Below are positions 1,334 through 62,043 of a stretch of DNA of 64,000 bases, in pieces. The notes below the pieces were generated by a model. It was not told where the DNA came from. It searched no databases and saw only the letters and a program-made list of their open reading frames with translations. Origin of the DNA: Novipirellula aureliae (GTDB lineage: Bacteria; Planctomycetota; Planctomycetia; Pirellulales; Pirellulaceae). The stretch lies in NCBI RefSeq assembly GCF_007860185.1, contig NZ_SJPY01000002.1, positions 252,374 through 316,373 on the forward strand. The letters are read 5' to 3'. The position numbers and the translations under genes were made by a program. Position 1 is the stretch's first letter. Every line of letters begins with the position of its first letter.

Positions 1334-1348
1334 AGCATTTTGATTTTT

Positions 1349-1552
1349 GACGTGGCTGGGGCTTCCAGCCCCAGTTGAGAAGAACGCTGCGACTGGAAGC
1401 CACAGCCACTAAATATGACGTGGCTGGGGCTTCCAGCCCCAGTTGAGAAGAACGCTGCGACTGGAAGCCACAGCCACTAAATATGACGTGGCTGGGGCTT
1501 CCAGCCCCAGTTGAGAAGAACGCTGCGGCTGGAAGCCACAGCCACTAAATAA
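1349..1552. repeat. 68-bp tandem repeat x3, each unit containing the hairpin CTGGGGC-ttcca-GCCCCAG and the CTGGAAGCCACAGCCAC motif
   Basis: Unit gacgtggctggggcttccagccccagttgagaagaacgctgcgactggaagccacagccactaaatat starts at 1349, 1417 and 1485 (third copy has a->g variant). Lies between convergent plsC and DoxX ends. Related solo copies at 25055-25120, 44432-44490 and 63380-63420. Confidence 0.9.
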
Positions 1553-9172: not shown

Positions 9173-11404
9173 ATGTCGACTGCATCGTCTGCCTCCCCGT
9201 CCCTACCGAGTCAAATTCAAATCCAGCTTCCTGACGGAACGATCGCCAAACATCCTGGCGATACCACGGCGATGGACATCGCCAAAGGGATCAGCGAGGG
9301 GTTAGCCCGCAGCGTGATGGCAGCCGAGGTTTCGGGAAAGATTGTCGACGCCAATCGCCCACTCGGTGAATTGGCTCAGGATGATTCGCCCATGCCACTT
9401 CGGCTACTGACCAACCGAGACAGCGAATCACTCGATGTGCTCCGTCACTCCGCCGCCCACGTGATGGCTCGTGCCGTGATGCGTCTTTACAAAGGTGTTT
9501 CGCTAGCATTCGGACCGACCACATCTGGCGGTTTCTACTATGATTTCGACATCCCCGAGAAGATTAGCGAAGACGATTTCCCGAAGATCGAAGCCGAAAT
9601 CAAAAAAATCATCAAAGAGAAAGAACCATTCGAGCGGTTTATTCTCGACCGTGACGAAGCAAGAAAGTTGTGCAACGATCTTGAGCAAGATTTGAAGGTC
9701 GAGCATATCGAAACCGGACTCGGCGACCAGCCGACGGTCAGTTTTTATCGCCAAGGCGAATTCGTCGATTTGTGCCGCGGTCCTCATATCCCCGATGCGG
9801 GAAAGATCAAAGCGATCAAATTGATGAGTATCGCGGGTGCGTATTGGAAGGGCGACGCTTCGGGCCGACAACTGCAACGACTTTATGGAACCGCTTTCTT
9901 CGACAAAAAGGAATTGGCGGCCTATTTAGAGCGACTCGAAGAAGCACGCCGACGCGACCATCGTGTGCTCGGTAAACAACACGGCCTGTTCGCGATCAAC
10001 CCCGAAGTGGGTCAAGGTCTATGCCTGTGGCTACCCAAGGGCGCTAGGGTACGTAGTACGCTCGAGGATTTCCTACGAAAAGAATTGCTGTCGCGAGGCT
10101 ACGACCCTGTCTATAGCCCTCATATCGGGCGAGTGGAATTGTATGAAACCAGCGGCCACTTTCCGTACTATCGCGACAGCCAATTCTCGCCATTGTTCGG
10201 TAGTGAAGCAGGTGGCATGATCGACGCCTGGACCCAGCGACTCGAAGCTGGCACGCTCGGCAAAGATGACGAAGAAAAGTTGATGGAAGCGGCCAAAGTG
10301 CTCGGAGCCGATATCCCCGATTACAAACCATCGGCATCGAACGAAGAGAAACGAGCGGTGCTGCATCGTTGGCAATCTGTTCATGAACGGTACTTGGTTA
10401 AACCGATGAATTGCCCGCATCATTGCCACATGTTCAAGGCTCAACCGCGATCGTATCGCCAATTGCCACTCCGGTTATTCGAGTTTGGAACGGTCTACCG
10501 TCACGAGCAAACGGGGGAACTGAACGGCATGCTACGTGTTCGCGGTTTGACTCAAGACGATGCCCATATCTTCTGCACTGCTGAACAAGTGGAAGCGGAA
10601 TTCAAAGCGACAATCGATTTGACCAAGTTTGTCTTGGAAGCGGTGGGACTACGCGACTATCGAGTTCAATTGTCGCTGCGTGATCCCAAGAGCGATAAGT
10701 ATGTCGGCAGCGAAGAGAATTGGACCCATGCCGAAAATGCGCTGCGAGAAGTGATGCAACATTCGGGGCTTCAATTCAACGAGGAACAAGGCGAGGCGGC
10801 CTTCTATGGACCGAAGGCCGACTTCATGGTCCGCGATTGTATCGGTCGATCTTGGCAGCTTGGTACCGTCCAACTCGACTACAATTTGCCTGAGCGTTTC
10901 AAACTCGAATACACAGGCACGGACAACGCGACGCACCGTCCCGTCATGATTCACCGTGCCCCGTTCGGTTCAATGGAACGGTTCACGGGAATGTTGATCG
11001 AGCACTTTGCCGGTGCATTCCCAATGTGGCTATCGCCCGAGCAAGTTCGCGTATTACCGCTTAGTGACAAGTCGATTGACTATGCCGTCGCGGTCGCAAA
11101 GCAGTTTGATGAAGCCGGGCTAAAGGTCACGATCGATAACAACGATGGCAAAGTCCAAGCCAAGATTCGCAATGCCCAGCTCGACCTCGTCAACTACATG
11201 GCCGTCGTCGGACCCAAGGAAGCGGAAGCGGGTCACGTTGCCCTGCGAGACCGGATTGAAGGCGATTTGGGATCGATGCCAATCGCCGAGGCGATTGCAA
11301 AATTGACGAAGGAAACCGACGAGCGAATCGTCCGCCAAGCGGTTCAAGGAACAGTCGACGGCGCCGCCGCCGTCGACTCCGGTGCCACCGGTCACGAGTA
11401 CTAA
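9173..11404 (+). CDS. thrS: threonine--tRNA ligase
   Basis: TGS domain at the N-terminus, [11 protein letters not shown] editing motif, class II core ([34 protein letters not shown]), anticodon-binding domain. 743 aa with extensions at both ends relative to the ~640-aa canonical enzyme. Confidence 0.95.
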
Positions 11405-11512
11405 ACACTCCAACCCCTAGTGCCCCAAGCTTTAGCCTCTACACGAGTGTTCAGAGGACCGGAAGGCTTGCGCCCGGTCGTTAATTTGTTAGCGGAACGG
11501 CGCAAGCGGACT

Positions 11513-11930
11513 GTCGAGTCAATCGTTTAACGCTTAGCCGAAGGCGCCAGCTTTCCCATAAGCGGTCGCCTTTGGCTTGGCGTTAAACAATAAGTCGAGT
11601 CAATCGTTTAACGCTTAGCCGAAGGCGCCAGCTTTCCCATAAGCGGTCGCCTTTGGCTTGGCGTTAAACAATAAGTCGAGTCAATCGTTTAACGCTTAGC
11701 CGAAGGCGCCAGCTTTCCCATAAGCGGTCGCCTTTGGCTTGGCGTTAAACAATAAGTCGAGTCAATCGTTTAACGCTTAGCCGAAGGCGCCAGCTTTCCC
11801 ATAAGCGGTCGCCTTTGGCTTGGCGTTAAACAATAAGTCGAGTCAATCGTTTAACGCTTAGCCGAAGGCGCCAGCTTTCCCATAAGCGGTCGCCTTTGGC
11901 TTGGCGTTAAACAATAAGTCGAGTCAAACC
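11513..11930. repeat. 81-bp tandem repeat x5 (plus partial sixth), each unit a long imperfect hairpin
   Basis: Unit gtcgagtcaatcgtttaacgcttagccgaaggcgccagctttcccataagcggtcgcctttggcttggcgttaaacaataa starts at 11513, 11594, 11675, 11756 and 11837. The stem GTTTAACGC...GCGTTAAAC has a secondary arm CCGAAGGCG/CGCCTTTGG. Lies between convergent thrS and glycosyltransferase 3' ends. Confidence 0.9.
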
Positions 11931-11991: not shown

Positions 11992-13290
11992 CTAGGATTG
12001 AGCAAACAATGTTGCCAAGGCTCGGCTGGCATTTTCGATCGAGTGTTTTTCGTGTACTGATCTGTGCCCGTTTTTGCTCAGTTCTTTTCGCAGTAACGGA
12101 TCGTTCTTTAATCGCAGGATCGCCTCGGCTAATGCGTGATGGTCGTTCGGTGGCACGAGGATGCCGCCGCCTGTCGATGCGATGAGCTCCGAAAACCCAC
12201 CGTGGTCTGGCAACACGACGGGAACCCCCGACGCCATGGCTTCAAGTGCAAACAATCCCTTTGGGTCTTCGTACTCGGTTGGCACGGACAACAAATCAAG
12301 AGACTGTAAAAACGCAACCTTCTCGGCCAATTCAGGGCTGCCGTGATACGTGAAACGGTCTTCCAAACCGGCTTCACGGACTCGCGTTTGGATCGTCTTC
12401 AAATAGGGACGATTGACTTCGCCGAGCCAACCAGCGACCTCGAGTGTGACGTCGTGATGCTCGTTTGCAAGGTGCAGAAACGCGTCAACCAGACGATGCA
12501 GTCCCTTTTCGGGTGATATTCTGGCCAAGTATCCAATGCGAAAGGTTTTGGTTTTGCCGTGCGATCGATCGGGCACGGATGTTAGAGACGCGGAGTAGGC
12601 GGCAGCATCGATCGACAAAGGCGTTTGAAAGAGTTTCTCCGGGGGGATGTTCAAAAGCGTGCCCATTCTATCAGCGTAAAAACGGCTGTTAACGACAAAT
12701 CGATCGACCGAACTGACCAGTTTGCTGCACAAGGCGATCGCTTCAGCACGGGCTTCGGTCGGAAGGTGGTCGAGAAAGATATCATCGCCTTGCAACATCA
12801 CAATAACCTGAGTCTCTGGAAGCCGACGATGGACGAGCGGAAGCGAACCACCAATGAGCAGATTGCTCAAAATAAGTACGTCGGGTTGAATTTTGTTCTC
12901 TAACCAATCAACCAGCCGGATAACTTCTTCGGACTGCCGCCCGTCGGTTCCTTGGAGCATCGAGATTGCCAAGTCGCCGAGTTTCGCGGGATCGGTCGAT
13001 GCGGCTTTACGAGTTGCCACTCGGATCAACGGCGGCCAATCGAGAAATCGGCGTGCGGATTGAGGGACAAACCGCAGCCACGGCATCTGTTGGAGCAAAT
13101 AAACGTGAATGCCGCCAAAGAAGATTTTCTCACTCGCAACGCTGATCGAATCGGTCCGAATCGGCGTATAGATTGGTTGCAGCAAACAATCGTAGCCATC
13201 AGCGATGAGCGTTCGAGCCAACGCGTTGTCGTGCATGCAACTGCCGCAGTACATGCCAGCAGCACCGGCGGTCAAGAAGACAACTTTCAT
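11992..13290 (-). CDS. glycosyltransferase family 4 (GT-B, GT1-type C-terminal domain)
   Basis: MKVVFLTAGAAGMYCGSCMHDN N-terminal domain and C-terminal E..GLFALEAMASGVPVV motif characteristic of GT4 retaining glycosyltransferases. Start set to the ATG at 13288-13290 (MKVVFLT) rather than the longer track ORF. Confidence 0.75.
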   Translation of the reverse strand: MKVVFLTAGAAGMYCGSCMHDNALARTLIADGYDCLLQPIYTPIRTDSISVASEKIFFGGIHVYLLQQMPWLRFVPQSARRFLDWPPLIRVATRKAASTDPAKLGDLAISMLQGTDGRQSEEVIRLVDWLENKIQPDVLILSNLLIGGSLPLVHRRLPETQVIVMLQGDDIFLDHLPTEARAEAIALCSKLVSSVDRFVVNSRFYADRMGTLLNIPPEKLFQTPLSIDAAAYSASLTSVPDRSHGKTKTFRIGYLARISPEKGLHRLVDAFLHLANEHHDVTLEVAGWLGEVNRPYLKTIQTRVREAGLEDRFTYHGSPELAEKVAFLQSLDLLSVPTEYEDPKGLFALEAMASGVPVVLPDHGGFSELIASTGGGILVPPNDHHALAEAILRLKNDPLLRKELSKNGHRSVHEKHSIENASRALATLFAQS

Positions 13291-13539
13291 GTTTGTTTTC
13301 AGCGATCGGATGGTTGATTGTGGTTGTTCCATGCGGATTCTATACTCTCGGTACGGTTGTCCGACGACCGCACCGCCGCATTTCCCCCACACACCTTAAT
13401 GCCTTCAAAGCCAGGAGGCAATTCGCCCCCTTATAACGCCGCGAGCGGTGTCCTGGACAGCAGAACACCCAATCGTCGCACTTAGGCGAGAATAAGAGAT
13501 GTCGAAATTCGCTTTTCGAGTATCCTCACAAGAAACAAT

Positions 13540-15351
13540 ATGTCAGCAAATAATACAGCATCAAACATCCGCAATTTTGCCATCATTGCCCATATCGACC
13601 ACGGCAAGAGCACGTTGGCCGACCGATTGTTGGAATTTACCGAGACGGTGACCCTGCGGCAAATGAAAGAGCAATTGCTCGACGATTTAGAACTTGAACG
13701 GTCGCGAGGGATCACGATCAAGGCCCACGCGGTTTCCATGCGATTTAACCGCAAGGGCAAGGATTACGAGCTAAATCTAATCGACACGCCCGGACACGTT
13801 GACTTTCATTACGAGGTTTCCCGATCGTTAGCATGTTGCGAAGGCGTGCTACTGCTCGTTGATGCGTTTCAAGGTGTCGAAGCACAAACGGTCGCCAATG
13901 CGTATGCCGCGATGGAGCACGATCTGAAAATCATTCCGGTCATCAACAAAATTGACTTGACTCACGCCCGGCCAGATGAAGTTGCCGAAGAGATGATGAA
14001 TTCACTCGGCACCGACCCGGATGAATGCGTCCGGGTCAGTGCGAAGACAGGCGAAGGGGTTCCCGATCTACTCGACGCGATCATCGAACACATACCCGCG
14101 CCAACGGGTGACGCCCAAGCGACGTTGCAAGCGATGGTGTTCGATTCGAATTATGACGATTTCCGAGGTGCGATCACCTATGTGCGGATCATGAACGGAA
14201 CCGTCCGCAAAGGTCAAAAAATCCGTTTTTTGAGAGCGGGTTCTGTCCATGAAGTGGTCGAACTAGGGCGATTCTCTCCACAACGCGTTGCTTGCAACGA
14301 ACTAAAGGCGGGACAAGTCGGCTATTTGATTTGTAACATCAAAAGTCTCAGTGACGTTCACATTGGCGACACGATTAGTATCCCAGGTGATAAACCGGCA
14401 CCAGCGTTGCCTGGCTACTCACTGCCCAAACGAATGGTTTACTGTGGTTTGTTCCCAAGCGATGGCCAAGATTTTTCGGAATTGCGTGATGCACTCGAGC
14501 GATTGTCGATCAATGACCCAAGCTTCGAATTCGAACCGGAAACCAGCGACGCATTGGGCTTCGGTTTCCGCTGTGGTTTCCTAGGGCTTTTGCACATGGA
14601 GATCATCCAACAGCGATTGGAGAATGAATCCGACATTGACTTGGTTCAAACCGCCCCGAATGTGACCTACGAGATTGTGACGAAACGCAATCAGCTTCTA
14701 ACGATTCACAAGCCGCAAGACGTCCCCGATCCAGGTGATATCGAAGAGTTCCGCCAACCGATCGTCAGGTGTAGCATCGTTGTTCCTGACGAATACATCG
14801 GATCGGTGATCCAATTGTGCCAAGAACGTCGAGGGATTCTCAAAACGCAAGAGTACATTGGCGCTGGGCGAGCGATGTTGGTTTATAACATTCCATTAGC
14901 GGAAGTCGTTTACGATTTGCATGATAAAATAAAGAGCTGCACGCGAGGCTACGGGACGCTCGATTACGAGATGGTGGGCTACGAGCCAGCGGACTTGTGC
15001 CGATTGGACATTATGGTCAATGGGAATCGAGTCGATGCATTGAGTATCGTTTGCAACAAAGCGGATGCCGATCGCCGCGGCCGAGCGGTCGCAAAGAAAT
15101 TAAAAGCGGAAATTGATCGGCACATGTTTGAAGTTGCCGTTCAGGCCGCGATCGGCAGTCGGGTGATCGCCCGAGAAACGGTTCCCGCAATGCGAAAAAA
15201 CGTGACGGCGAAGTGTTACGGAGGCGATATCACTCGCAAACGCAAGTTACTACAAAAGCAGAAGGAAGGAAAAAAACGCATGAAGGCGATTGGCAACGTC
15301 GAGATCAGCCAAAAAGCATTCATGGCCGTGCTAAGCGATGGTGAAGGCTAA
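13540..15351 (+). CDS. lepA: elongation factor 4 (translational GTPase LepA)
   Basis: IRNFAIIAHIDHGKSTLADRLL G1 motif, DTPGHVDF, NKID, full-length LepA including the unique C-terminal domain. Confidence 0.95.
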   Translation: MSANNTASNIRNFAIIAHIDHGKSTLADRLLEFTETVTLRQMKEQLLDDLELERSRGITIKAHAVSMRFNRKGKDYELNLIDTPGHVDFHYEVSRSLACCEGVLLLVDAFQGVEAQTVANAYAAMEHDLKIIPVINKIDLTHARPDEVAEEMMNSLGTDPDECVRVSAKTGEGVPDLLDAIIEHIPAPTGDAQATLQAMVFDSNYDDFRGAITYVRIMNGTVRKGQKIRFLRAGSVHEVVELGRFSPQRVACNELKAGQVGYLICNIKSLSDVHIGDTISIPGDKPAPALPGYSLPKRMVYCGLFPSDGQDFSELRDALERLSINDPSFEFEPETSDALGFGFRCGFLGLLHMEIIQQRLENESDIDLVQTAPNVTYEIVTKRNQLLTIHKPQDVPDPGDIEEFRQPIVRCSIVVPDEYIGSVIQLCQERRGILKTQEYIGAGRAMLVYNIPLAEVVYDLHDKIKSCTRGYGTLDYEMVGYEPADLCRLDIMVNGNRVDALSIVCNKADADRRGRAVAKKLKAEIDRHMFEVAVQAAIGSRVIARETVPAMRKNVTAKCYGGDITRKRKLLQKQKEGKKRMKAIGNVEISQKAFMAVLSDGEG

Positions 15352-18095: not shown

Positions 18096-19262
18096 ATGTT
18101 TTCCATTGAACGAACGGATCATTTGGCGACAATCGTTTCGGGGGCTGATTCGTCACGCGAACTTTGGAATTCGCTCGCCGATGGCGTCCCGTTTCGCGAA
18201 CCGAGTTGGTTGGAATCTTGGTGGGAATCGTTTTCAAATGGACAAGAACCCTACATTCTAATCGCACGCGACGCGTCGCGGCAAATTTGTGGCCTGTTGC
18301 CACTCTATCGAAAATCGGGTTCGCCCCGAGTATTGTGCTCCTTTGGCAATAATAATGTCTGCAGCGACTTCGTGTCCGTCATCGCCAAGCCTGAGAATGC
18401 AAAGGAAATCGCAAAGGCAATGGCAAATTTCCTAATCGATCAAATGAACGATTCGAACGATAGTTGGGATCTGATTGAAATGGATGGAATCAGTGAAAAC
18501 GATGAAGTCATGAAAACCTTTGCCGCAGAACTGGGAAAACGTAGTGCGATCGTTCACGCTCAGTCTCGGATGCACACTTGGCTGTTCGAATGTCAAGCAA
18601 CATGGGACGATTGGCTGCAAAAACTAAGTCGCCGAACTCGCCGAAAACACCATTTATTGGAATCTCGGGTCGAGGATACCGACGGCATGGAACTCGTCGT
18701 TGCATCAAATCACGACGAAGTAACCGCGCTCATCGACGGCTTGATCGATCTACATCAACGCCGCTGGAACGCGGTCGGGGAACCCGGCAGCTATGCGGAT
18801 CCGAAAATGCGAAGCTTTATCCAACAAGTCGCCAAGCATTGGCACGACCGAAACCGACTGCACCTCGTTGCGATTCTGATGGATGGAAAAACGATCGGTA
18901 ATGCGCTAAATTACCGAAGTGACGATGGATGCCTCTACGTCTATAGCACTGGCTATGACATCGAGGCGTCAAAACTCGAGCCAGGCCGAGTTTTGACGAC
19001 CAAGACGTTGAAATATGCTCACGAGCAGAAGATGAAAGGCGTTGAGTTTTTGCGTGGTGACGAAGCCTACAAAAAGATGCTCGGAGCCGTTCCAACGCGA
19101 TTGTTGGAATACCGAATCGTCGCACCTCGACTCTGGGCAAAGCTCAGTCATGCCGCCTGGGCTACCCAGTTCGAGCTAAAACAATGGGTACGTCGGCGCA
19201 CAGGCCGCGAAACCCTCGAGGTCGTCGATATCGCCAGTAGCAGCGTCTCTCCGAGACGCTGA
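18096..19262 (+). CDS. GNAT-fold acyltransferase, FemAB/BioF2-like (Acetyltransf_6) family
   Basis: 388 aa; N-terminal ~150 aa plus a C-terminal acyltransferase-like region (YVYSTGYD...GVEFLRGDEAYKKMLGA) resemble the FemAB/CelD-like GNAT family. The 3' end runs into the 60-bp repeat array. Confidence 0.5.
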   Translation: MFSIERTDHLATIVSGADSSRELWNSLADGVPFREPSWLESWWESFSNGQEPYILIARDASRQICGLLPLYRKSGSPRVLCSFGNNNVCSDFVSVIAKPENAKEIAKAMANFLIDQMNDSNDSWDLIEMDGISENDEVMKTFAAELGKRSAIVHAQSRMHTWLFECQATWDDWLQKLSRRTRRKHHLLESRVEDTDGMELVVASNHDEVTALIDGLIDLHQRRWNAVGEPGSYADPKMRSFIQQVAKHWHDRNRLHLVAILMDGKTIGNALNYRSDDGCLYVYSTGYDIEASKLEPGRVLTTKTLKYAHEQKMKGVEFLRGDEAYKKMLGAVPTRLLEYRIVAPRLWAKLSHAAWATQFELKQWVRRRTGRETLEVVDIASSSVSPRR

Positions 19263-19416
19263 ACACACCAAATCTCGGAGTGAATCGGCAACATACGTAG
19301 CAGCGTCTCTCCGAGACGCTGAACGCACCGAATCTCGAAGTGAATCGGCAACATACGTAGCAGCGTCTCTCCGAGACGCTAAACACACCAAATCTCGGAG
19401 TGAATCGTCAACATCT
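19237..19416. repeat. 60-bp tandem repeat x3 carrying the palindrome AGCGTCTCTCCGAGACGCT
   Basis: Unit gtagcagcgtctctccgagacgctgaacacaccaaatctcggagtgaatcggcaacatac starts at 19237, 19297 and 19357. First copy overlaps the last codons of the upstream CDS. Member of the GTCTC/GAGAC palindrome family also seen at 39712, 59143 and 61593. Confidence 0.9.
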
Positions 19417-23034: not shown

Positions 23035-24939
23035 TCAGCGTCTGCGGCGTCCCTGCTTTGCTTTGCGTTTGATCATTGCTTTGCGTTTTCGGACCCATTC
23101 GGGTTGCACGCTGGCAAGATCAATTCCAGCAGCGAGGAGTGCCTTGTCCCAGTCGCCATAGAATTTTTCAGCCGTCAATATCAGAGCACTATCGCGAATA
23201 TCATCGTCGCCATGCGAAACCGCTCGATGGTTGAGTGGTATCCCCTCCTTGTGCCGACGTTGTAACTCCGCGATGACTTCGTCGCGGCTTTCATAGGTGC
23301 GATAAGTACGCTTCTTCATCGCTTCGTAGTCTTGCTGCTTGTGAACCACCGAATCGTACTCGATTCCAGCGGCTTCGATCGCCGCTTGCCAACTGCCAAA
23401 CAATTTACGAGCACTGTAGAGCAGTGGCTGATCGGTGGCATCGCCGTGGGTAAGGCCACGTACGTTAATCGGCTGGTCCTTCTTTTGCCGTTTGCGAATT
23501 TCGTCGACGACTTGCTTTTCCGTAACGTATTTCCGAATCGGTTCGAGGTTGAATTGATGGTAAGCTTTCGGATCTTGTCCCGACGCCCTGACGGCAGCCT
23601 GCCAGGTGCCAAAGAAACCGCTAGCCATACAATAAAGTTGCTTGTCGATCTCGTTTTGGCAAAGTTGCTCTCTTGCCAACGACCGACCGCCGCGGTTCCG
23701 TTTCTTCAGCTCAGCGGTCACTTTTGCAGTCGTTGAAAATGGGGTTTGACTGGCCTCGCGAATTTGTCGCGAATTGCCACCCGCCTTTTTGACGGCGTTT
23801 CGCCAACTGCCGAAGAGCTCGAACGCTTTCTTCCATAACCGCAAATCAGAGCGAGAACCGTAGTAGAGATCGAGAGGTGCTAGGCTATACTGATGATCCA
23901 ATCGATAGCGGATCGCTTCAAGCACATCCTGTTCGGTTTCATAGTTCACACGTCGGACACGCAACTTTTGCGGAACCCGAGCGGCATCGAGACAGGCGGT
24001 CCAATTACCAAAAAAACGAGCTGCTGCGTCGGTTAGCTGCGTGCCATTCGGCCACAAACTTACTGCCGTATGAGACAAATCCGCCTTTTCTCGGCTCTTT
24101 CGCCGCACCTCCTTTAACACCGATTCCTTCGTCAGATAGTGATGACCTCCAAAAACGGCTTTGCCAAAATCAACCTTCGCTGCTTCTAACGCGGCGGTCC
24201 AGTTGCCGTAACGGCGCATCGCCCAAACAAATTGCCGCGGTCGCCGATGCCACGTGTCATACTCTCCGAGTAACGTGACTTGCGTGCAATCGACTCCTCG
24301 ACTTTCACGGTCCTCAAGCCATTGCTTGAAATCGGCGAGCGTAAAGTCACTGTCTCGCGTGAACCCTCGATACTCCACAGGGTCAATATCGATTCGCCGC
24401 AGCACATCATCCCAGCTCATCGGATCGAGGAAGATTTTGAACACACCAACCAAGGAGCAATCGATCGTCGTCATCGTTTCATAGTCCATCCAAAAGCCCC
24501 GCATGGCATATTCGTTGATACGGTCCAATATGTATTCGGCGGTGTAAATGGGTTCCCAATGTGGAATGAACTCGGGATGAGGGGGGCGTTTTGAATTGCC
24601 TGTCAATTTTTCGCGTAAACGCTCGCTGACGAGTTCCGCATCGGGATACTCCTCGCGATAATCTTCGGTCGACATCTCGTGAGCCGACCGCAGATGTACC
24701 GTCAAATTCTGAAAACGACGGCCACAAACACGACACTCCGTCGTTTCACGCACATAAATGCGGATTTTATCATACGTCAAACCGGCATCCGCCAGGGCCG
24801 CTTTCCATCCCCAATACGGAGTTTCCGCATAGACAGCCGAAACCAATTCCGGATGGTCTCGTTTGACAGCAGAAAGGTTCAACGGTTCACATCGCCGATG
24901 TAGACGGCGAATGGTTTGGATTACTTGTTTACGGTTCAT
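23035..24939 (-). CDS. MucR/Ros-type C2H2 zinc-finger protein fused to ~7 homing-endonuclease-associated (HNH_repeat-like) repeats
   Basis: Near N-terminus: CRVCGRRFQNLTVHLRSAHEMSTEDYREEY (C-X2-C-X9-H-X4-H plus the E-YR-W/Y tail of the Ros/MucR domain). Then repeated ~60-aa modules each ending in an aromatic-G-x-W-x-x-A-h-x-x-A-G motif: YGNWTAALEAAK, FGNWTACLDAAR, FGSWRNAVKKAG, FGTWQAAVRASG, FGSWQAAIEAAG, YGDWDKALLAAG. Basic C-terminal tail. Confidence 0.6.
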   Translation of the reverse strand: MNRKQVIQTIRRLHRRCEPLNLSAVKRDHPELVSAVYAETPYWGWKAALADAGLTYDKIRIYVRETTECRVCGRRFQNLTVHLRSAHEMSTEDYREEYPDAELVSERLREKLTGNSKRPPHPEFIPHWEPIYTAEYILDRINEYAMRGFWMDYETMTTIDCSLVGVFKIFLDPMSWDDVLRRIDIDPVEYRGFTRDSDFTLADFKQWLEDRESRGVDCTQVTLLGEYDTWHRRPRQFVWAMRRYGNWTAALEAAKVDFGKAVFGGHHYLTKESVLKEVRRKSREKADLSHTAVSLWPNGTQLTDAAARFFGNWTACLDAARVPQKLRVRRVNYETEQDVLEAIRYRLDHQYSLAPLDLYYGSRSDLRLWKKAFELFGSWRNAVKKAGGNSRQIREASQTPFSTTAKVTAELKKRNRGGRSLAREQLCQNEIDKQLYCMASGFFGTWQAAVRASGQDPKAYHQFNLEPIRKYVTEKQVVDEIRKRQKKDQPINVRGLTHGDATDQPLLYSARKLFGSWQAAIEAAGIEYDSVVHKQQDYEAMKKRTYRTYESRDEVIAELQRRHKEGIPLNHRAVSHGDDDIRDSALILTAEKFYGDWDKALLAAGIDLASVQPEWVRKRKAMIKRKAKQGRRRR

Positions 24940-37723: not shown

Positions 37724-37900
37724 GGTTTCCAGCCTGGACTCCAATTTTTCCCAGGCTGGAAGCCTAGGCTACGTGAATCGGTTAATGCCTGAACGCCAAT
37801 TTCCCCCAGGCTGGAAGCCTAGGCTACGTGAATCGGTTAATGCCTGGACTCCAATTTTCCCAGGCTGGAAGCCTAGGCTACGTGAATCGGTTATTGCCTG
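37724..37900. repeat. ~54-bp tandem repeat x3 carrying the GCCTGGACTCCAATTTT and CCAGGCTGGAAGCCTAGG motifs
   Basis: ccagcctggactccaatttttcccaggctggaagcctaggctacgtgaatcggttaatgcc repeated three times with variants, in the 223-bp gap between two co-directional HlyD genes. The GCCTGGACTCCAA core recurs at 1594-1624 (reverse), 9043-9060 and 25668-25690. Confidence 0.85.
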
Positions 37901-37912
37901 GACTCTAACGGT

Positions 37913-40147
37913 CTAAAAATACATCTTCAAGTTTGCTCGAATCATTTCGATGGCATCGTAAAACACCACGTTAACCAGTGGCAGATCCTCACATTGGAAC
38001 ATGACCCGAATTGGAGTCCCGTTCACGGAACCACGGTTTTGAAGCGAGCGGCATAGCTCCATCGACTTCTCGGATGATTCGATTTGCAGCACGACTGCTT
38101 TTGCATCGGTTCCGTCCTTGGTGTTGCGGATCACCGGACCGATCGATTGCATCGTCAATGGCAACGGTTGGTCTTTTGCATCGTTCATCGTTGCGACTGC
38201 GGACAGGACGCCTTTTTGGTTTGCATGATGGACGGGATCGATTCGGGACAGTGGCACACGCGCGTCAACGAACCATCGAGTCTCATTGCCAATAACTTCC
38301 AATAAAGCATCTCCGCGATTGACGGGTCGACCTTGTAAACGCTGCTCGATTTGCCACGCATCCACGACACCATCGTTTGTCGCTCGTATGACCAGCGATT
38401 GTTTCACTTCTTCGAGATCGGCTAATTGTTGATCAATGGTTTGCAGCTCTTCCGCCAACAAACTTCGCTCACTTTGCAATTGTTCGCTACGGTCGGTTCG
38501 GTTGGAAGCCGTATCGACGAGAGCGGTCATGAAAGCTGATTGCTTCTGAATCAGAATCGATCGCCGGCCGATCAACGCGGTCATTTGTTGCTCAAGCGTA
38601 GGATCGCTCATCGACAACAGTTTCTGACCGCTTGTAACCGATTCCCCATTTGCGACATGGATCGATTCGATGACGGCCGACCTTGGCGCAAAAACTCGTT
38701 GCACGTCTGCTGGCCGAAGTACCGCCGGTGCAGTCACTCGCATCGGAACGGGGTAGAGTGCTGCAACCGCCACAAGAGCCATGAAGAGGATGCCAACGAC
38801 GGGGTTGAACCACTTCGCACGACGTCGCGAATGGATTTGGTTCGCCAATGCCCCGATCACGCGCCCCATGGGAATCGCTTCGAGCATTCGACGATGCCGA
38901 ATCGCTAACCCCGTGTGCAATGCGATGCGGCAGAGCGGTTCGCTTAGCAAATCGTCGAGCGGTTCCGAACCGCTGCGGACGAATCCTACCAAGCAAACGG
39001 CATCGCATTCTTCTGAACTGGCAACGAAACGAACTTCTAAATCGGAAGATCCTCCCTCTTGTTCGTCCGGAAGCATAATACACGAGGTTGCGGGACAATA
39101 GTACTCGTTGGCGACCGCTTCGATCTGTTTCGCTGCACTGCCGTTCCGGTCGATCGTACCAACATGACTCACCGCAACCAATTTGCAATCGTTTGCTTCG
39201 ACGTAGCACAATGCAACCCGGTCAAGGGGAAAAATCTTGGCGACCGAGTCGACCGCGAGCATTTCGATAGAACGGCTGTTGGTTTGGGCATGAAGCGAAG
39301 CAATGATCGCATCGACTTGGTCGTTTACACGTGCTTTGTGATCGAGACAGCGAAGTTGATCGTTGCGCAAAAACTCGCCAGCTAAATCTGCCATTTGAGC
39401 GACGAAACGCAGGTAGCCACGCTGGGTCGCGATCCCGCAATCGGGTTCAAGAAAGACTTCGAGGACATACGAAGGATGCGGCGAGATCGGATTGGACTCG
39501 ATCGGTACGACCGCCGCAGCCACATGGGTTGGATTGGCTGGAAGAGCGGAATCGGTAGCCCCGGGAGTTGCCGGAACAACGACCGGCTGTCCCGAGGCAA
39601 TCACTTCCGCAATCATTTGCAGGTGAGTGTTTGCCGATTCAGACGGAATCGTTTGGTCTGTCACCTTGCCAATCCGATGAGCAACCGAAAACGTCCATTC
39701 ATCAGTAGATCCGTCTCTCCGAGACGGACAGCCCGGCACCGTGGTTTCGTCTCTCCGAGACGGACAGCCCGGCACCGTAGGTTCGTCTCTCCGAGACGGA
39801 CAGCCCGGCACCGTAGGTTCGTCTCTCCGAGACGGACAGCCCGGCACCGTAGGAGCGTCTCTCCGAGACGGACACTCCCTCGTATCAACATTCCAAATCA
39901 CAACGCCTTCTGCTGCCATAGCCACCAGAATACGGTTGGCTAGCATTCCTAGAAATTGGTGACGCGAGGCATGACTGCGAGCCGCCAGTGCCACTTCGCG
40001 AACAATGTCGGCGATTTCACGCCGCGTTTCTTGGACGAGTGGGTTATTTTCGCCCGTCGACCGCTGCGGATGCGGCGCAGCGTTACCACCTGGAGCAGGT
40101 CCAGAAGGAGAAAAGACGAACGGTTGGTCGTGAACATCCGCTTGCAC
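37913..40147 (-). CDS. HlyD family adaptor protein with large N-terminal cytoplasmic GAF-like region and an in-frame 12-aa x5 repeat
   Basis: 744 aa. N-terminal ~450 aa is soluble with GAF-like blocks, then a TM helix (VVGILFMALVAVAALY), then a HlyD-like periplasmic domain (coiled coil LAEELQTIDQQLADLEEVK; beta-strands). Residues ~90-150 are CPSRRD(A/E)PTVPG x5, encoded by the palindromic 36-bp repeat. Confidence 0.5.
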   Translation of the reverse strand: MQADVHDQPFVFSPSGPAPGGNAAPHPQRSTGENNPLVQETRREIADIVREVALAARSHASRHQFLGMLANRILVAMAAEGVVIWNVDTRECPSRRDAPTVPGCPSRRDEPTVPGCPSRRDEPTVPGCPSRRDETTVPGCPSRRDGSTDEWTFSVAHRIGKVTDQTIPSESANTHLQMIAEVIASGQPVVVPATPGATDSALPANPTHVAAAVVPIESNPISPHPSYVLEVFLEPDCGIATQRGYLRFVAQMADLAGEFLRNDQLRCLDHKARVNDQVDAIIASLHAQTNSRSIEMLAVDSVAKIFPLDRVALCYVEANDCKLVAVSHVGTIDRNGSAAKQIEAVANEYYCPATSCIMLPDEQEGGSSDLEVRFVASSEECDAVCLVGFVRSGSEPLDDLLSEPLCRIALHTGLAIRHRRMLEAIPMGRVIGALANQIHSRRRAKWFNPVVGILFMALVAVAALYPVPMRVTAPAVLRPADVQRVFAPRSAVIESIHVANGESVTSGQKLLSMSDPTLEQQMTALIGRRSILIQKQSAFMTALVDTASNRTDRSEQLQSERSLLAEELQTIDQQLADLEEVKQSLVIRATNDGVVDAWQIEQRLQGRPVNRGDALLEVIGNETRWFVDARVPLSRIDPVHHANQKGVLSAVATMNDAKDQPLPLTMQSIGPVIRNTKDGTDAKAVVLQIESSEKSMELCRSLQNRGSVNGTPIRVMFQCEDLPLVNVVFYDAIEMIRANLKMYF
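39712..39885. repeat. 36-bp tandem repeat x5 (CGTCTCTCCGAGACGGACAGCCCGGCACCGTRGKTT) lying in-frame inside the GAF-HlyD CDS
   Basis: Copies start at 39712, 39748, 39784, 39820 and 39856 (last degenerate). The core CGTCTCTCCGAGACG is the same palindrome as in the intergenic arrays at 19237, 59143 and 61593. Confidence 0.9.
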
Positions 40148-59142: not shown

Positions 59143-59380
59143 TGTAGTAGGCGAGTCTCTCCGAGACTCGTAATGTATCGTAGTAGGCGAGTCTCTCCGA
59201 GACTCGCAATTTCAGCGTCTCAATTTCAGCGTCTCAGTTTCAGCGTCTCAATTTCAGCGTCTCAATTTCAGCGTCTCAATTTCAGCGTCTCGGAGAGACG
59301 CTGCTACTGTTCAGCGTCTCGATTTCAGCGTCTCGGAGAGACGCTGCTACTGTTCAGCGTCTTGGAGGGACGCTGCGACG
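59143..59380. repeat. composite repeat block: 35-bp unit x2 (GTAGTAGGCGAGTCTCTCCGAGACTCG), 14-bp microsatellite (AATTTCAGCGTCTC) x6, and two copies of CAGCGTCTCGGAGAGACGCTGCTACTGTT
   Basis: Read directly. The last element is the reverse complement of the GTAGCAGCGTCTCTCCGAGACGCTG core of the 19237 array. Lies between the PQQ-protein start and the ExbD stop. Confidence 0.9.
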
Positions 59381-61415: not shown

Positions 61416-61592
61416 CGGTTACTCGTGTGGATTAGGTCCGTAAGAATGGTCATGGTGGAGGTAGTGTAGTATCTTTCTACCTAGAATCACCAAAAGCGGG
61501 CATGATTTCCAGCACTATCCTAACCGATTACGAATATTTATGGGGTGAGGGTGCGACAAGATTTCACGCCGTATCGAAAAAAAGGTTTAGCC

Positions 61593-62043
61593 TAGTAGCG
61601 GCGTCTCTCCGAGACGCCGAACACAGGCCAGCCCAGTAGCGGCGCCTCTCCGAGACGCCGAACACAGGTCAGCCCAGTAGCGGCGTCTCGCCGAGACGCC
61701 GAACACAGGTCAGCCCAGTAGCGGCGTCTCGCCGAGACGCCGAACAAAAGGTCAACCCAGTAGCGGCGCCTCTCCGAGACGCCGAACACAGGCCAACCCA
61801 GTAGCGGCGTCTCGCCGAGACGCCGAACAAAAGGCCAACCCAGTAGCGGCGTCTCGCCGAGACGCCGAACACAGGTCAGCCCAGTAGCGGCGTCTCGCCG
61901 AGACGCCGAACAAAAGGTCAGCCCAGTAGCGGCGCCTCGCCGAGACGCCGAACACAGGTCAGCCCAGTAGCGGCGTCTCGCCGAGACGCCGAACACAGGC
62001 CAACCCAGTAGCGGCGTCTCGCCGAGACGCCGAACAAAAGGTG
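61593..62043. repeat. 41/42-bp tandem repeat x~11 (AGTAGCGGCGTCTCGCCGAGACGCCGAACA[C/A]A[G/A]G[T/C]CA[G/A]CCC)
   Basis: Eleven head-to-tail copies with 3-4 variant positions per unit. Each carries the GCGTCTC(G/T)CCGAGACGC palindrome. There are no unique spacers, so this is a minisatellite, not a CRISPR array. Confidence 0.9.

What the first reader, a model, noticed from the sequence alone, without database searches (positions are those of the whole stretch)
11513..11930. Five tandem 81-bp units each folding into a ~25-bp-stem hairpin, between convergent thrS and glycosyltransferase genes
Each unit contains GTTTAACGC-TTAGCCGAAGGCG...CGCCTTTGGCTTGG-CGTTAAAC, a long imperfect inverted repeat with a ~20-nt loop. 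Tandem arrays of strongly structured units at convergent gene ends can act as bidirectional terminators or RNA-stability elements, or be REP/BIME-like. Copies here are almost identical, which indicates recent amplification or ongoing homogenisation. The 418-bp block is the largest non-coding feature in the window.
Basis: seen in the sequence. Interest (0 to 1): 0.5.

Follow-up and report, generated by a model that had tools for sequence, protein, structure and literature searches.

The report
Tandem REP-type hairpin repeats, RayT-linked
The five identical 81-bp hairpin units are real; they are a tandemly amplified copy of a palindromic repeat family that is scattered through planctomycete genomes and travels with its own RayT-like single-strand DNA transposase, so this is the planctomycete counterpart of the REP/BIME repeats of E. 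coli, not a locus-specific regulatory device.

Summary
Observation confirmed. Window 11513-11927 holds 5.1 perfectly identical 81-bp units. Each carries a 64-nt hairpin (about 27 pairs, 6-nt loop; RNA -42.9 kcal/mol, z = -7). The array lies between convergent thrS and a GT4 glycosyltransferase gene in Novipirellula aureliae.

The hairpin is not locus-specific. Its two 29-nt arms (family consensus TCGTTTAACGCCCAGCCGAAGGCGCCGGC) belong to a dispersed family found in at least 120 places in about 20 Planctomycetota genomes. Arms occur mostly as inverted doublets with GTTTAAC outside (72 versus 2), and also as single arms and short tandem arrays.

A covariance model built without the window scores each unit at 63.5 bits. 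Other hairpins in the window reach at most 26.

In five independent genomes the arms flank a 207-208-aa gene of a divergent Y1/HUH transposase group (NCBIfam REP-associated tyrosine transposase; predicted fold matches IS200/IS605 TnpA and E. coli TnpA-REP). N. aureliae encodes a homologue (Q31b_10170).

So this is a BIME-like cluster of REPIN-like doublets. It was probably amplified by slippage between 10-bp direct repeats.

A terminator or RNA-stabiliser role is plausible but untested: there is no U-tract and the family shows no 3'-end bias. It is a new member of a known kind. Copy number cannot be verified without reads.

The parts
11513..11927 (.). Tandem array: five complete 81-bp units (11513-11593, 11594-11674, 11675-11755, 11756-11836, 11837-11917) plus a 10-bp partial sixth unit
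   Evidence: TRF period 81, 5.1 copies, 100% identity, score 830; the repeat finder register; sequence
11525..11588 (.). Hairpin of unit 1 (about 27 pairs, 6-nt loop TTCCCA). The same hairpin recurs at 11606-11669, 11687-11750, 11768-11831 and 11849-11912.
   Evidence: strand folding RNA -42.9 kcal/mol z -7.05, - strand -38.8, DNA -25.3. Covariance model R2, built without the window, scores 63.5 bits, E 1.9e-14, for each unit.
11523..11551 (+). Left 29-nt arm TCGTTTAACGCTTAGCCGAAGGCGCCAGC (3 mismatches to the family consensus). Repeats at +81, +162, +243 and +324.
   Evidence: Fuzzy match to consensus. The 22-mer GTTTAACGCTTAGCCGAAGGCG also occurs exactly in L001 and in metagenome loci L132 and L133.
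11562..11590 (-). Right 29-nt arm (reverse complement TTGTTTAACGCCAAGCCAAAGGCGACCGC, 5 mismatches to the consensus). Repeats at +81, +162, +243 and +324.
11552..11561 (.). Inner linker (centre of the doublet) TTTCCCATAA. A related centre, TTTGTCCCATAGCA, is seen in the single-copy relative L132.
11591..11603 (.). Outer linker TAAGTCGAGTCAA between successive doublets (four copies). Its last 10 bases are the direct repeat that bounds the array.
   Evidence: sequence
11513..11522 (.). 10-bp direct repeat GTCGAGTCAA at the left edge. The identical copy at 11918-11927 forms the right edge. This implies an ancestral single doublet flanked by a 10-bp direct repeat.
   Evidence: sequence; 5.1 copies in TRF
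9173..11404 (+). thrS (threonyl-tRNA synthetase), upstream convergent neighbour. Its stop codon lies 108 bp before the array.
   Evidence: Pfam; 100% identical to Novipirellula aureliae ThrRS
11992..13392 (-). GT4 glycosyltransferase, downstream convergent neighbour (the NCBI protein is 432 aa, so the start is probably near 13290). Its stop codon lies 64 bp after the array.
   Evidence: Pfam Glycos_transf_1; P0121 100% identity

Best explanation
The block is a BIME-like cluster. It holds five head-to-tail copies of one REPIN-like doublet, that is, two inverted 29-nt REP-type arms that pair into a long hairpin.

The doublet belongs to a repeat family spread through genomes of Pirellulales and related Planctomycetota. 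The family is tied to a dedicated, divergent RayT-like Y1/HUH single-strand DNA transposase, a homologue of which N. aureliae encodes elsewhere.

Shown here:
- family membership of the window units;
- dispersal of the family;
- a strict orientation rule for the arms;
- arms more conserved than their flanks;
- physical linkage of the arms to the RayT-like gene in five genomes;
- the Y1/HUH nature of that protein.

Inferred:
(a) Copies are made or maintained by the RayT-like enzyme acting on the hairpin in single-stranded DNA, as for E. coli TnpA-REP.
(b) A single doublet flanked by the 10-bp direct repeat GTCGAGTCAA was expanded to five copies by replication slippage or unequal recombination between those repeats. 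This happened recently, hence 100% identity.
(c) At this convergent junction the ten arms give both transcripts five very stable hairpins. These may impede read-through or 3' exonucleases, or be cut by RNase III. That would be a by-product, not the reason the element exists.
For: Family and dispersal:
- There are 221 arms. Adjacent-arm pairs are 72 '+-' (GTTTAAC outside) against 2 '-+' and 21 in the same orientation; 81 arms are single, not part of a doublet.
- Nine genomes share the identical 29-nt consensus, although LepA identity among host genomes is as low as 71-73%.

Membership of the window units:
- R2, built from 63 doublets of other genomes, scores 63.5 bits per unit. Any other window hairpin scores at most 26 bits, and RayT-flanking doublets score 50-53 bits.

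Pairing:
- 94.2% of cells are paired. Compensatory types occur at three or more positions (CG/GC/AU). 0 of 500 shuffles reach the observed covariation.

Constraint:
- In two orthologous insertions shared by two species, the arms are 115/116 identical against 527/613 for the flanks, Fisher p = 3e-6.

Transposase link:
- The L074 ORF hits Pfam Y1_Tnp and lies between arms.
- It has 4676 homologues, named RayT by JGI, including N. aureliae Q31b_10170.
- Arms or doublets flank the gene in L074, L134, L135-138, L139/140 and L141.
- NCBIfam REP_Tyr_transpos matches 27/27 members and Pfam Y1_Tnp 26/27.
- HxH and Y-x-x-x-N-P are invariant.
- The AF2 model's top 30 PDB hits are all IS200/IS605 TnpA or TnpA-REP 4er8.

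Tandem reiteration:
- It is recurrent in the family, with 11 arrays in the fetched loci.
- Di Nocera et al. 2013 (PMC3733652) describe it for REPs generally.
Against: - The classical REP tag (an unpaired 5' GTAG) is absent. The conserved outer motif is (TC)GTTTAAC and it is part of the stem.
- The RayT-like proteins score below the curated cut-offs: NCBIfam about 42 versus 80 bits, and Pfam 20-23 versus 23.
- Only this one locus of the family is seen in the 64-kb window.
- The N. aureliae RayT context and the genome-wide copy number could not be fetched, so activity of the system in this genome is not shown.
- The 10-bp direct repeat bounding the array looks like a target-site duplication, which Y1 transposases do not make.
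- No binding, cleavage or transcript data exist.
- Covariation in a DNA palindrome family can arise from copying subfamily arms and does not prove selection for structure.
Confidence: 0.8

Rival explanations
1. A MITE: a non-autonomous deletion derivative of a DDE-transposase insertion sequence. The 29-nt arms would be its terminal inverted repeats. It would have inserted with a 10-bp target-site duplication (GTCGAGTCAA) and then been amplified between the duplicated target sites.
For: The arms look like TIRs. The array is bounded by an exact 10-bp direct repeat. Elements bounded by arms with long centres (about 340 bp) exist in L141.
Against: No direct repeats flank the doublets in other genomes (contexts). 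No arm pair encloses a DDE transposase in 120 loci. The only transposase linked to the arms is a Y1/HUH enzyme, which works without TIR recognition or target-site duplication. Single arms and tandem single arms are common.
Confidence: 0.07
2. Integron attC sites: a cluster of attC sites lacking an integrase (CALIN) made of five empty cassettes, recombined by an integron integrase.
For: The outer heptamers fit the attC R''/R' consensus exactly (GTTTAAC = RYYYAAC, GTTAAAC = GTTRRRY). The hairpins are imperfect in the window's subfamily. Integrons do occur in Planctomycetes (Cury 2016; Ghaly 2021).
Against: The published Planctomycetes attC model reads GCCUAAC, then a 5-nt unpaired spacer, then GUU, then an extrahelical G, then CAGC, then a long variable loop. 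The family consensus here is a perfect palindrome with no unpaired spacer and no extrahelical base. The 81-bp spacing leaves no room for cassette ORFs. Copies are scattered singly between housekeeping genes. Half-sites occur alone and in tandem. The arms are linked to a Y1 transposase, not a tyrosine recombinase.
Confidence: 0.03
3. A locus-specific functional RNA or DNA device: a bidirectional transcription terminator or mRNA 3'-end stabiliser selected at the thrS / glycosyltransferase convergent junction, which merely resembles repeats elsewhere.
For: The position lies between convergent genes. There are five hairpins of -39 to -43 kcal/mol on either strand. A relative with 97% ThrRS identity also has a hairpin array immediately after thrS, from a different hairpin type that scores 48 bits with the family model and shares the GCCCAGC core.
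Against: The same element family occurs in many unrelated intergenic contexts: 44 co-directional, 11 divergent and 10 convergent by crude ORF calling. No U-tract follows the stem and the scan finds no terminator-like site in the array. There is no Rfam match. The spacer is not conserved in other Novipirellula species, whose thrS neighbours differ.
Confidence: 0.05
4. Assembly artefact of copy number: the element is real, but 'five identical copies' is an assembler's resolution of a repeat longer than the reads.
For: Identity is 100% over 415 bp. Draft genome in several contigs: the two N. aureliae genes found here sit on separate contigs of 0.996 and 1.55 Mb. Metagenome contigs of the close relative break inside its hairpin array. 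No independent assembly contains the unit-to-unit junction: 0 hits in metagenome contigs.
Against: Tandem arrays of 2-6 units with family arms are seen in many independent assemblies. Six other arrays are assembled in the same window, several with diverged copies.
Confidence: 0.15

Closest known systems
E. coli REP/BIME elements, especially BIME-2, with their RAYT (TnpA-REP, PDB 4ER8)
   Same: Short palindromic units are dispersed in extragenic DNA. Clusters have units alternating in orientation, separated by two alternating linker types and reiterated in tandem. The cognate Y1/HUH transposase gene is flanked by the repeats (REPtron). The predicted fold of the planctomycete protein matches 4er8 and IS200/IS605 TnpA.
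   Different: There is no unpaired GTAG foot. The arms are 29 nt and pair with each other into a hairpin of about 27-33 bp instead of each forming its own small stem-loop. The transposase is a divergent 207-208-aa group below the curated family cut-offs. Gyrase, IHF or Pol I binding is unknown.
REPINs of Pseudomonas fluorescens (Bertels & Rainey 2011; cited from my own knowledge and from the reference list of PMC3733652)
   Same: The commonest unit is a doublet of two inverted REPs forming one long hairpin with a variable centre. Singlets and higher-order clusters also occur. The doublets are associated with a single-copy RAYT.
   Different: The planctomycete arm sequence is shared almost unchanged by at least nine species-level genomes of several genera or families, whereas I recall REPIN sequences as generally lineage-specific (from memory, not checked here). 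Population-level evidence of mobility is lacking here.
TIRtrons, TIRYT and 'TIR repeats' (Di Nocera, De Gregorio & Rocco 2013, PMC3733652)
   Same: RAYT-like genes are flanked by long inverted repeats without a GTAG tag. Those repeats form moderately abundant families organised as dimers and clusters. The authors list Rhodopirellula baltica among the organisms in which a plethora of tyrosine transposase genes with corresponding flanking repeats was found.
   Different: The GTTTAAC family does not appear in the searchable text or supplements of that paper. Their shared motif GGGGWSAS is absent here.
Bacterial MITEs that fold into long hairpins (Correia/NEMIS, ERIC/IRU)
   Same: Small size, terminal inverted repeats, long RNA hairpins when co-transcribed, and intergenic location.
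   Different: Those elements derive from DDE-type transposition with target duplications (TA for Correia). Here no consistent duplication is seen and the linked enzyme is Y1/HUH.
Integron attC sites / CALIN
   Same: Imperfect palindromes bounded by RYYYAAC ... GTTRRRY.
   Different: The internal architecture, spacing, genomic distribution and associated enzyme all differ.

Membership tests
REP/REPIN-RAYT system (REPtron) | Short palindromic repeat present in many copies, mostly extragenic, within a genome | tested here: met
   At least 120 stretches; 16-20 loci each for four MAGs in a truncated scan. 65 of 88 clusters are intergenic by crude ORF calling. For N. aureliae itself only this locus is seen in 64 kb, and the genome-wide count could not be obtained.
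REP/REPIN-RAYT system (REPtron) | A Y1/HUH tyrosine transposase (RAYT) gene flanked by copies of the same repeat | tested here: met
   Met in five independent genomes: L074, L134, L135-138, L139/140 and L141. N. aureliae encodes a homologue, P0300, but its flanks could not be fetched.
REP/REPIN-RAYT system (REPtron) | The transposase has the HUH motif, the catalytic Tyr and the RAYT-type Y-x-x-x-N-P signature, on a Y1 fold | tested here: met
   H105-x-H107 and Y175/N179/P180 are invariant in 27 members. NF047646 matches 27/27, though below cut-off. Pfam Y1_Tnp matches 26/27. Foldseek's top 30 hits are all IS200/IS605 TnpA or 4er8.
REP/REPIN-RAYT system (REPtron) | Conserved unpaired 5' GTAG (or CGTC) tetranucleotide at the foot of each REP | tested here: not met
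   The arms start (TC)GTTTAAC, which pairs with the partner arm. By contrast, GTAG-tagged REPs of another family are present elsewhere in the window.
REP/REPIN-RAYT system (REPtron) | Inverted doublets (REPINs) as the predominant arrangement | tested here: met
   72 '+-' pairs against 2 '-+'. Centre lengths cluster at 12 and 25-26 nt.
REP/REPIN-RAYT system (REPtron) | The enzyme binds and cleaves the repeat as single-stranded DNA | not testable with these tools
   Needs biochemistry.
BIME (cluster of REPs) | REPs in alternating orientation separated by alternating conserved linkers, with a variable number of tandem motifs | tested here: met
   Ten arms alternate in orientation. The inner linker is 10 nt and the outer linker 13 nt, repeated five times.
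BIME (cluster of REPs) | Binding of gyrase, IHF or Pol I | not testable with these tools
   No data.
MITE (DDE-IS derived) | Target-site duplication of fixed length at every copy | tested here: not met
   A 10-bp direct repeat bounds the window array only. None is seen around the doublets listed. No filled-versus-empty site pair was available, so the test rests on visual inspection of flanks.
MITE (DDE-IS derived) | A parent IS with the same terminal inverted repeats enclosing a DDE transposase | tested here: not met
   None in 120 loci. The linked gene is a Y1/HUH transposase.
Integron attC / CALIN | R'' RYYYAAC and R' GTTRRRY at the ends | tested here: met
   GTTTAAC ... GTTAAAC.
Integron attC / CALIN | Unpaired central spacer and extrahelical bases between the R and L boxes | tested here: not met
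   The family consensus is a perfect palindrome. The published Planctomycetes attC model has a 5-nt unpaired spacer and an extrahelical G. The window subfamily has mismatches, but not in that pattern.
Integron attC / CALIN | Sites separated by cassette ORFs, with an intI nearby or elsewhere in the genome | tested here: not met
   The 81-bp period leaves 13 nt between hairpins. The neighbours are housekeeping genes. Presence of intI in the genome was not tested.
Intrinsic (Rho-independent) terminator | GC-rich stem-loop immediately followed by a U-tract | tested here: not met
   No terminator-like site in the array on either strand. The stems are followed by AAUAAGUCG on the + strand and GAUUGACUC on the - strand.
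Rfam RNA families | Match to a curated covariance model at its gathering score | tested here: not met
   Only sub-threshold miRNA-precursor noise, 25.6 bits against a cut-off of 116.6.

The most novel reading that the evidence does not exclude
The GTTTAAC hairpin family and its RayT-like partner may be a domesticated, order-wide system and not a selfish repeat.

Grounds for this reading: nine species-level genomes share the same 29-nt consensus arm, although LepA identity among host genomes is as low as 71-73%. Arms at orthologous sites are conserved far better than the surrounding genes (115/116 versus 86%). Hairpin arrays of one kind or another recur at the same thrS junction in related species.

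The arms would then be recognition sites with a host function, such as chromosome structuring, replication-associated processing, or transcript 3'-end formation in a phylum where canonical terminators may be scarce. Tandem arrays such as this one would be tuned doses of that function.
Probability: 0.12. Interest if true: 0.6.

Novelty: new member of a known kind. Interest (0 to 1): 0.3.

Why it matters
It puts a name and a mechanism on one class of the long hairpin repeats in Pirellulaceae intergenic DNA; breaks at hairpin arrays were seen in metagenome contigs of a close relative. It also gives a concrete REP-RAYT pair outside the Proteobacteria: a 29-nt arm consensus plus a well-populated protein family of more than 4600 homologues. 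The REP sequence is unusually stable across genera. That makes the pair a useful comparative system for asking whether REP/RAYT systems are selfish or domesticated. For annotation, such arrays should be masked as repeats. They should not be called as ORFs, as happens to the other REP arrays at 39705-39874 and 61592-61996 of this window. For this locus nothing suggests a special regulatory device.

Tried and rejected
- Rfam scan of the spacer at E <= 10: only miRNA-precursor noise.
- Promoter/terminator scan: nothing in the array.
- Search for more copies in the window, by 22-mer with 3 mismatches and by two covariance models with filters off: none.
- Viral contigs: no match to the family pattern.
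- Metagenome scan for the unit-to-unit junction: no independent copy of the array.
- Synteny in relatives. Three other Novipirellula species have different genes after thrS and no element. The closest relative (97% ThrRS) has two extra genes and a different hairpin array, so no empty site could be aligned.
- Recurrent neighbouring genes in 120 loci: only the large planctomycete paralogue families, namely sulfatase, Ser/Thr kinase, GFO/IDH, DUF1501, PSD1 and ECF sigma.
- A strict RAYT motif regex found nothing. The relaxed regex found L074, plus one false positive, L026.
- attC hypothesis: tested against the published Planctomycetes attC model and rejected.
- Small hairpin within a single arm (AGCCG-N7-CGGCT) as the true REP unit: not kept in the arm variants that flank RayT genes in other genomes (inspection), so dropped.
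- The window's arms are not measurably closer to the arms next to the RayT most similar to the N. aureliae protein than to other variants, so no such claim is made.
- Exact-sequence look-ups of the N. aureliae ThrRS, GT and RayT contigs failed.
- Single-sequence PDB search of the RayT-like protein gave nothing meaningful. The profile search gave only weak hits. The fold search was needed.
- Full Pfam annotation of the window was prepared but not run.
Full report
**Observation**

The sequence at 11513-11927 is a perfect tandem array. Tandem Repeats Finder reports period 81, 5.1 copies, 100% matches, no indels and score 830. The repeat finder gives the same register.

One unit reads GTCGAGTCAA / TCGTTTAACGCTTAGCCGAAGGCGCCAGC / TTTCCCATAA / GCGGTCGCCTTTGGCTTGGCGTTAAACAA / TAA.

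Each unit folds into a single hairpin, 11525-11588 in unit 1:
- about 27 pairs, one 1x1 mismatch, two single-base bulges and a 6-nt loop;
- RNA + strand -42.9 kcal/mol, z = -7.05;
- RNA - strand -38.8 kcal/mol, z = -6.4;
- DNA -25.3 kcal/mol, z = -6.7;
- no shuffle folds as well.

All five hairpins survive folding of the whole spacer. The array stops 10 bases into a sixth unit, so it begins and ends with GTCGAGTCAA.

The block is also not the largest non-coding repeat in the window: the 41-bp array at 61575-62036 spans 462 bp.

**Surroundings and organism**

ORF 9173-11404 (+) is threonyl-tRNA synthetase. ORF 11992-13392 (-) is a GT4 glycosyltransferase. lepA follows at 13540-15351. The genes converge on a 587-bp spacer.

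The ThrRS is 100% identical to that of Novipirellula aureliae (Pirellulaceae, Planctomycetota). The spacer has no Rfam match, no sigma-70-like promoter and no stem-plus-U-tract terminator in the array.

**The hairpin is a member of a dispersed family**

A degenerate 22-mer that fits both arms (GTTTAACGCNNNGCCNAAGGCG) was scanned over one genome per species. Nearly all are Planctomycetota MAGs labelled Pirellulaceae, Thermoguttaceae, Planctomycetaceae or Planctomycetia, with 16-20 fetched loci each for four of them. The few hits in Proteobacteria or Bacteroidota are single matches, most of them inside ORFs by the crude calls, and look like chance.

The family consensus is TCGTTTAACGCCCAGCCGAAGGCGCCGGC, then a variable centre, then GCCGGCGCCTTCGGCTGGGCGTTAAACGA.

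Statistics over 221 arms:
- adjacent-arm pairs within 100 nt: 72 inverted with GTTTAAC outside, 2 in the opposite arrangement, 21 in the same orientation;
- 81 arms are single, meaning not part of an inverted doublet;
- centre lengths cluster at 12 and 25-26 nt.

Nine genomes share the identical 29-nt consensus, even though LepA identity among host genomes is as low as 71-73%.

The window's arms differ from the consensus at 3 and 5 of 29 positions. Its left-arm 22-mer recurs exactly in a Pirellulaceae MAG (L001). It also recurs in a metagenome contig (L132) that carries a single copy with a related loop and the same ending, AAACAATA.

A covariance model built from 63 doublets of other genomes scores each window unit at 63.5 bits (E 1.9e-14). 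Any other hairpin in the window scores at most 26 bits. No further member exists in the 64 kb.

**Structure and constraint**

On 64 aligned doublets, 94.2% of the cells of a 30-pair helix are standard pairs. Three positions show several compensatory pair types (for example CG 38, GC 9, AU 5). None of 500 shuffles reaches the observed covariation, and sliding the partner column collapses pairing to 25-44%.

Because whole subfamilies inherit a change, and because a doublet can be assembled from two copies of one arm type, this shows that complementarity is kept. It does not show that an RNA structure is selected.

Two insertions are orthologous between two species (L038/L040 and L059/L102). Across them:
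- arms: 115/116 identical;
- centres: 31/38 identical;
- 150-bp flanks: 527/613 identical (Fisher p = 3e-6).

The arms are therefore either constrained or homogenised.

**Link to a Y1 transposase**

No gene recurs next to the elements apart from the big planctomycete paralogue families. A relaxed HUH...Y motif search of all fetched loci then picked an ORF in L074. This ORF:
- hits Pfam Y1_Tnp (23.0 bits);
- carries HVHLV and YVQQNP;
- lies between a doublet plus an arm on one side and an arm on the other.

Its protein has 4676 homologues at E <= 1e-5. They are 207-208 aa long, and JGI names many of them 'REP element-mobilizing transposase RayT'. One is N. aureliae Q31b_10170 (59% identity), located on another contig.

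The contexts of four further homologues all show family arms or doublets on both sides of the gene, each with its own arm variant:
- Candidatus Laterigemmans baculatus: three tandem arms plus one inverted arm upstream, and an inverted arm downstream.
- A Thermoguttaceae lineage seen in four assemblies: doublets on both sides.
- The homologue closest (77%) to the N. aureliae protein.
- A 2.4-Mb contig of GCA_963852535.

Evidence that the protein is a Y1/HUH transposase:
- H-x-H and Y-x-x-x-N-P are invariant in 27 members.
- All 27 match NCBIfam 'REP-associated tyrosine transposase', although below its cut-off, and 26 match Pfam Y1_Tnp.
- A profile search of PDB sequences ranks IS200/IS605 transposases first, weakly.
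- An AlphaFold model of the N. aureliae protein (pLDDT 71.7, pTM 0.73) has as its 30 best Foldseek matches only ISDra2, IS608 and archaeal IS200 TnpA, plus E. coli TnpA-REP bound to a REP hairpin.

A repeat family flanking its own Y1 transposase is the defining arrangement of REP/RAYT systems.

**How the array arose (inferred)**

The array is [10-bp repeat + 71-bp doublet] x 5 + [10-bp repeat]. The simplest history is one doublet lying between two copies of GTCGAGTCAA, expanded by slipped-strand mispairing or unequal exchange between them. The expansion would be recent enough that no copy has mutated.

Tandem reiteration of arms, with or without flanking DNA, is common in the family: 11 arrays with periods of 32-98 bp in the fetched loci. 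Di Nocera et al. describe it for REP clusters in general (PMC3733652). It is also the rule in this window, where 21 GTAG-tagged REPs of another family all sit in four tandem arrays.

A role of the RayT-like enzyme in making arrays cannot be excluded.

**What it does here (inferred, weakly)**

Both convergent transcripts would acquire up to five hairpins of about -40 kcal/mol. In E. coli, REPs and BIMEs have been proposed to stabilise upstream mRNA and attenuate transcription (reviewed in PMC3733652). A near-perfect RNA duplex of about 27 bp would also be an RNase III substrate (my inference from general knowledge).

Points against a dedicated terminator role:
- No U-tract follows the stem.
- By a crude ORF map, family members lie in 44 co-directional, 11 divergent and 10 convergent spacers.
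- The spacer is not conserved among Novipirellula species.

One point in favour of some local selection or fragility: the closest relative (97% ThrRS) also has a hairpin array immediately after thrS. It is of a different type (31-pair stem, three tandem 37-bp half-arms), scores 48 bits with the family model, and has two extra genes before the glycosyltransferase.

**Rivals**

- attC sites. The outer heptamers match RYYYAAC/GTTRRRY exactly. But the published Planctomycetes attC model requires an unpaired 5-nt spacer and an extrahelical G that the family lacks. The spacing, distribution and associated enzyme are also wrong.
- DDE-type MITE. Only the 10-bp direct repeat speaks for it. No such repeats flank other copies, and no DDE gene lies between arms.
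- Assembly artefact. The element is certainly real, but the number five cannot be verified. No independent assembly carries the junction.

**Comparison and novelty**

In working principle and in membership tests this is a REP/BIME-type element with a RAYT-like partner. It is closest to the REPIN doublets of Pseudomonas and to the 'TIR repeats/TIRYT' class of Di Nocera et al. Those authors already noted many tyrosine transposases with flanking repeats in Rhodopirellula baltica.

It differs in three ways:
- it lacks the GTAG foot;
- its 29-nt arms pair with each other;
- its arm sequence is unusually conserved across genera.

I found no description of the GTTTAAC family in the searchable literature. 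That search is limited to open-access text. I therefore class it as a new member of a known kind, of modest interest.

**Limits**

- Gene contexts rest on crude ORF calling.
- The taxonomic labels of the MAGs are loose.
- The N. aureliae genome outside the window could not be read.
- Nothing here is experimental.

Noticed in passing
window 19237-19414, 39705-39874, 59207-59362, 61575-62036: Four tandem arrays hold 21 copies of a classical GTAG-tagged REP (GTAG-CAGCGTCTC-TCCG-GAGACGCTG and variants). This is a different REP family from the finding. The last array (41 bp x 10.9, 462 bp) is longer than the array of the finding.
   Followed up: partly
window 39705-39874 within ORF 37913-40147 (-); window 61592-61996 (-): REP arrays are read through by long ORFs. 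The 744-aa ORF begins with PGCPSRRDEPTV-type peptide repeats encoded by the REP array, so its true start is probably downstream. The 134-aa ORF inside the 41-bp array is almost certainly spurious.
   Followed up: no
window 1348-1551 and 37732-37905: Two more tandem arrays (68 bp x 3 and 55 bp x 3.2). Their units contain GTGG/GTAG + 7-bp stem + TTCCA loop hairpins, possibly a third REP family. The first lies between convergent ORFs.
   Followed up: no
window 11466-11507: A separate hairpin (GCTTGCGCC ... GGCGCAAGC, with an inner 7-bp stem) lies between the thrS stop and the array. It has no U-tract and may be the original 3' structure of thrS.
   Followed up: no
L121:3459-3625, L123, L128 end (metagenome relative, 97% ThrRS identity): Immediately after thrS this relative carries three tandem 37-bp half-arms (CCCGTTAAACCGCGTGCCCAGCGGGCCGCGCGTCTG) plus an inverted arm. 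Together they form a 31-pair hairpin (-52 kcal/mol as DNA). It shares GCCCAGC and a GTTAAAC/GTTTAAC end with the family, but with the heptamer polarity inverted. Three of the four thrS contigs and one GT4 contig end in or next to it. The relative also has two extra genes (239 aa; 3-keto-disaccharide hydrolase) between thrS and the glycosyltransferase.
   Followed up: partly
L020:5874, L118:1724, L134:2001-2732; window lepA 13540-15351: Family elements, and in L134 the RayT-like gene itself, lie next to lepA in three other genomes. The window array is 1.6 kb from lepA. This may be chance or an old shared insertion region.
   Followed up: no
alignment A1 centres (e.g. L072, L093, L096, L101, L008): Many 25-30-nt centres of doublets share a GCGTT(C/T)CAC / GTGGAACGC motif in either orientation, suggesting a conserved loop feature in one subfamily.
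   Followed up: no
L010, L017, L004, L046, L031, L088, L089 (MAG DAIOWH01); L056, L116, L081, L023, L043 (MAG JAAYAY01 and a relative): In some genomes the doublet is embedded in a longer genome-specific repeat, with 40-120 nt of conserved flank on each side. These are composite elements built around the arms.
   Followed up: no
window 23035-24939 (-): A 634-aa ORF with several internal repeats of a motif ending in W..A...AG. No family was assigned because it was not scanned.
   Followed up: no
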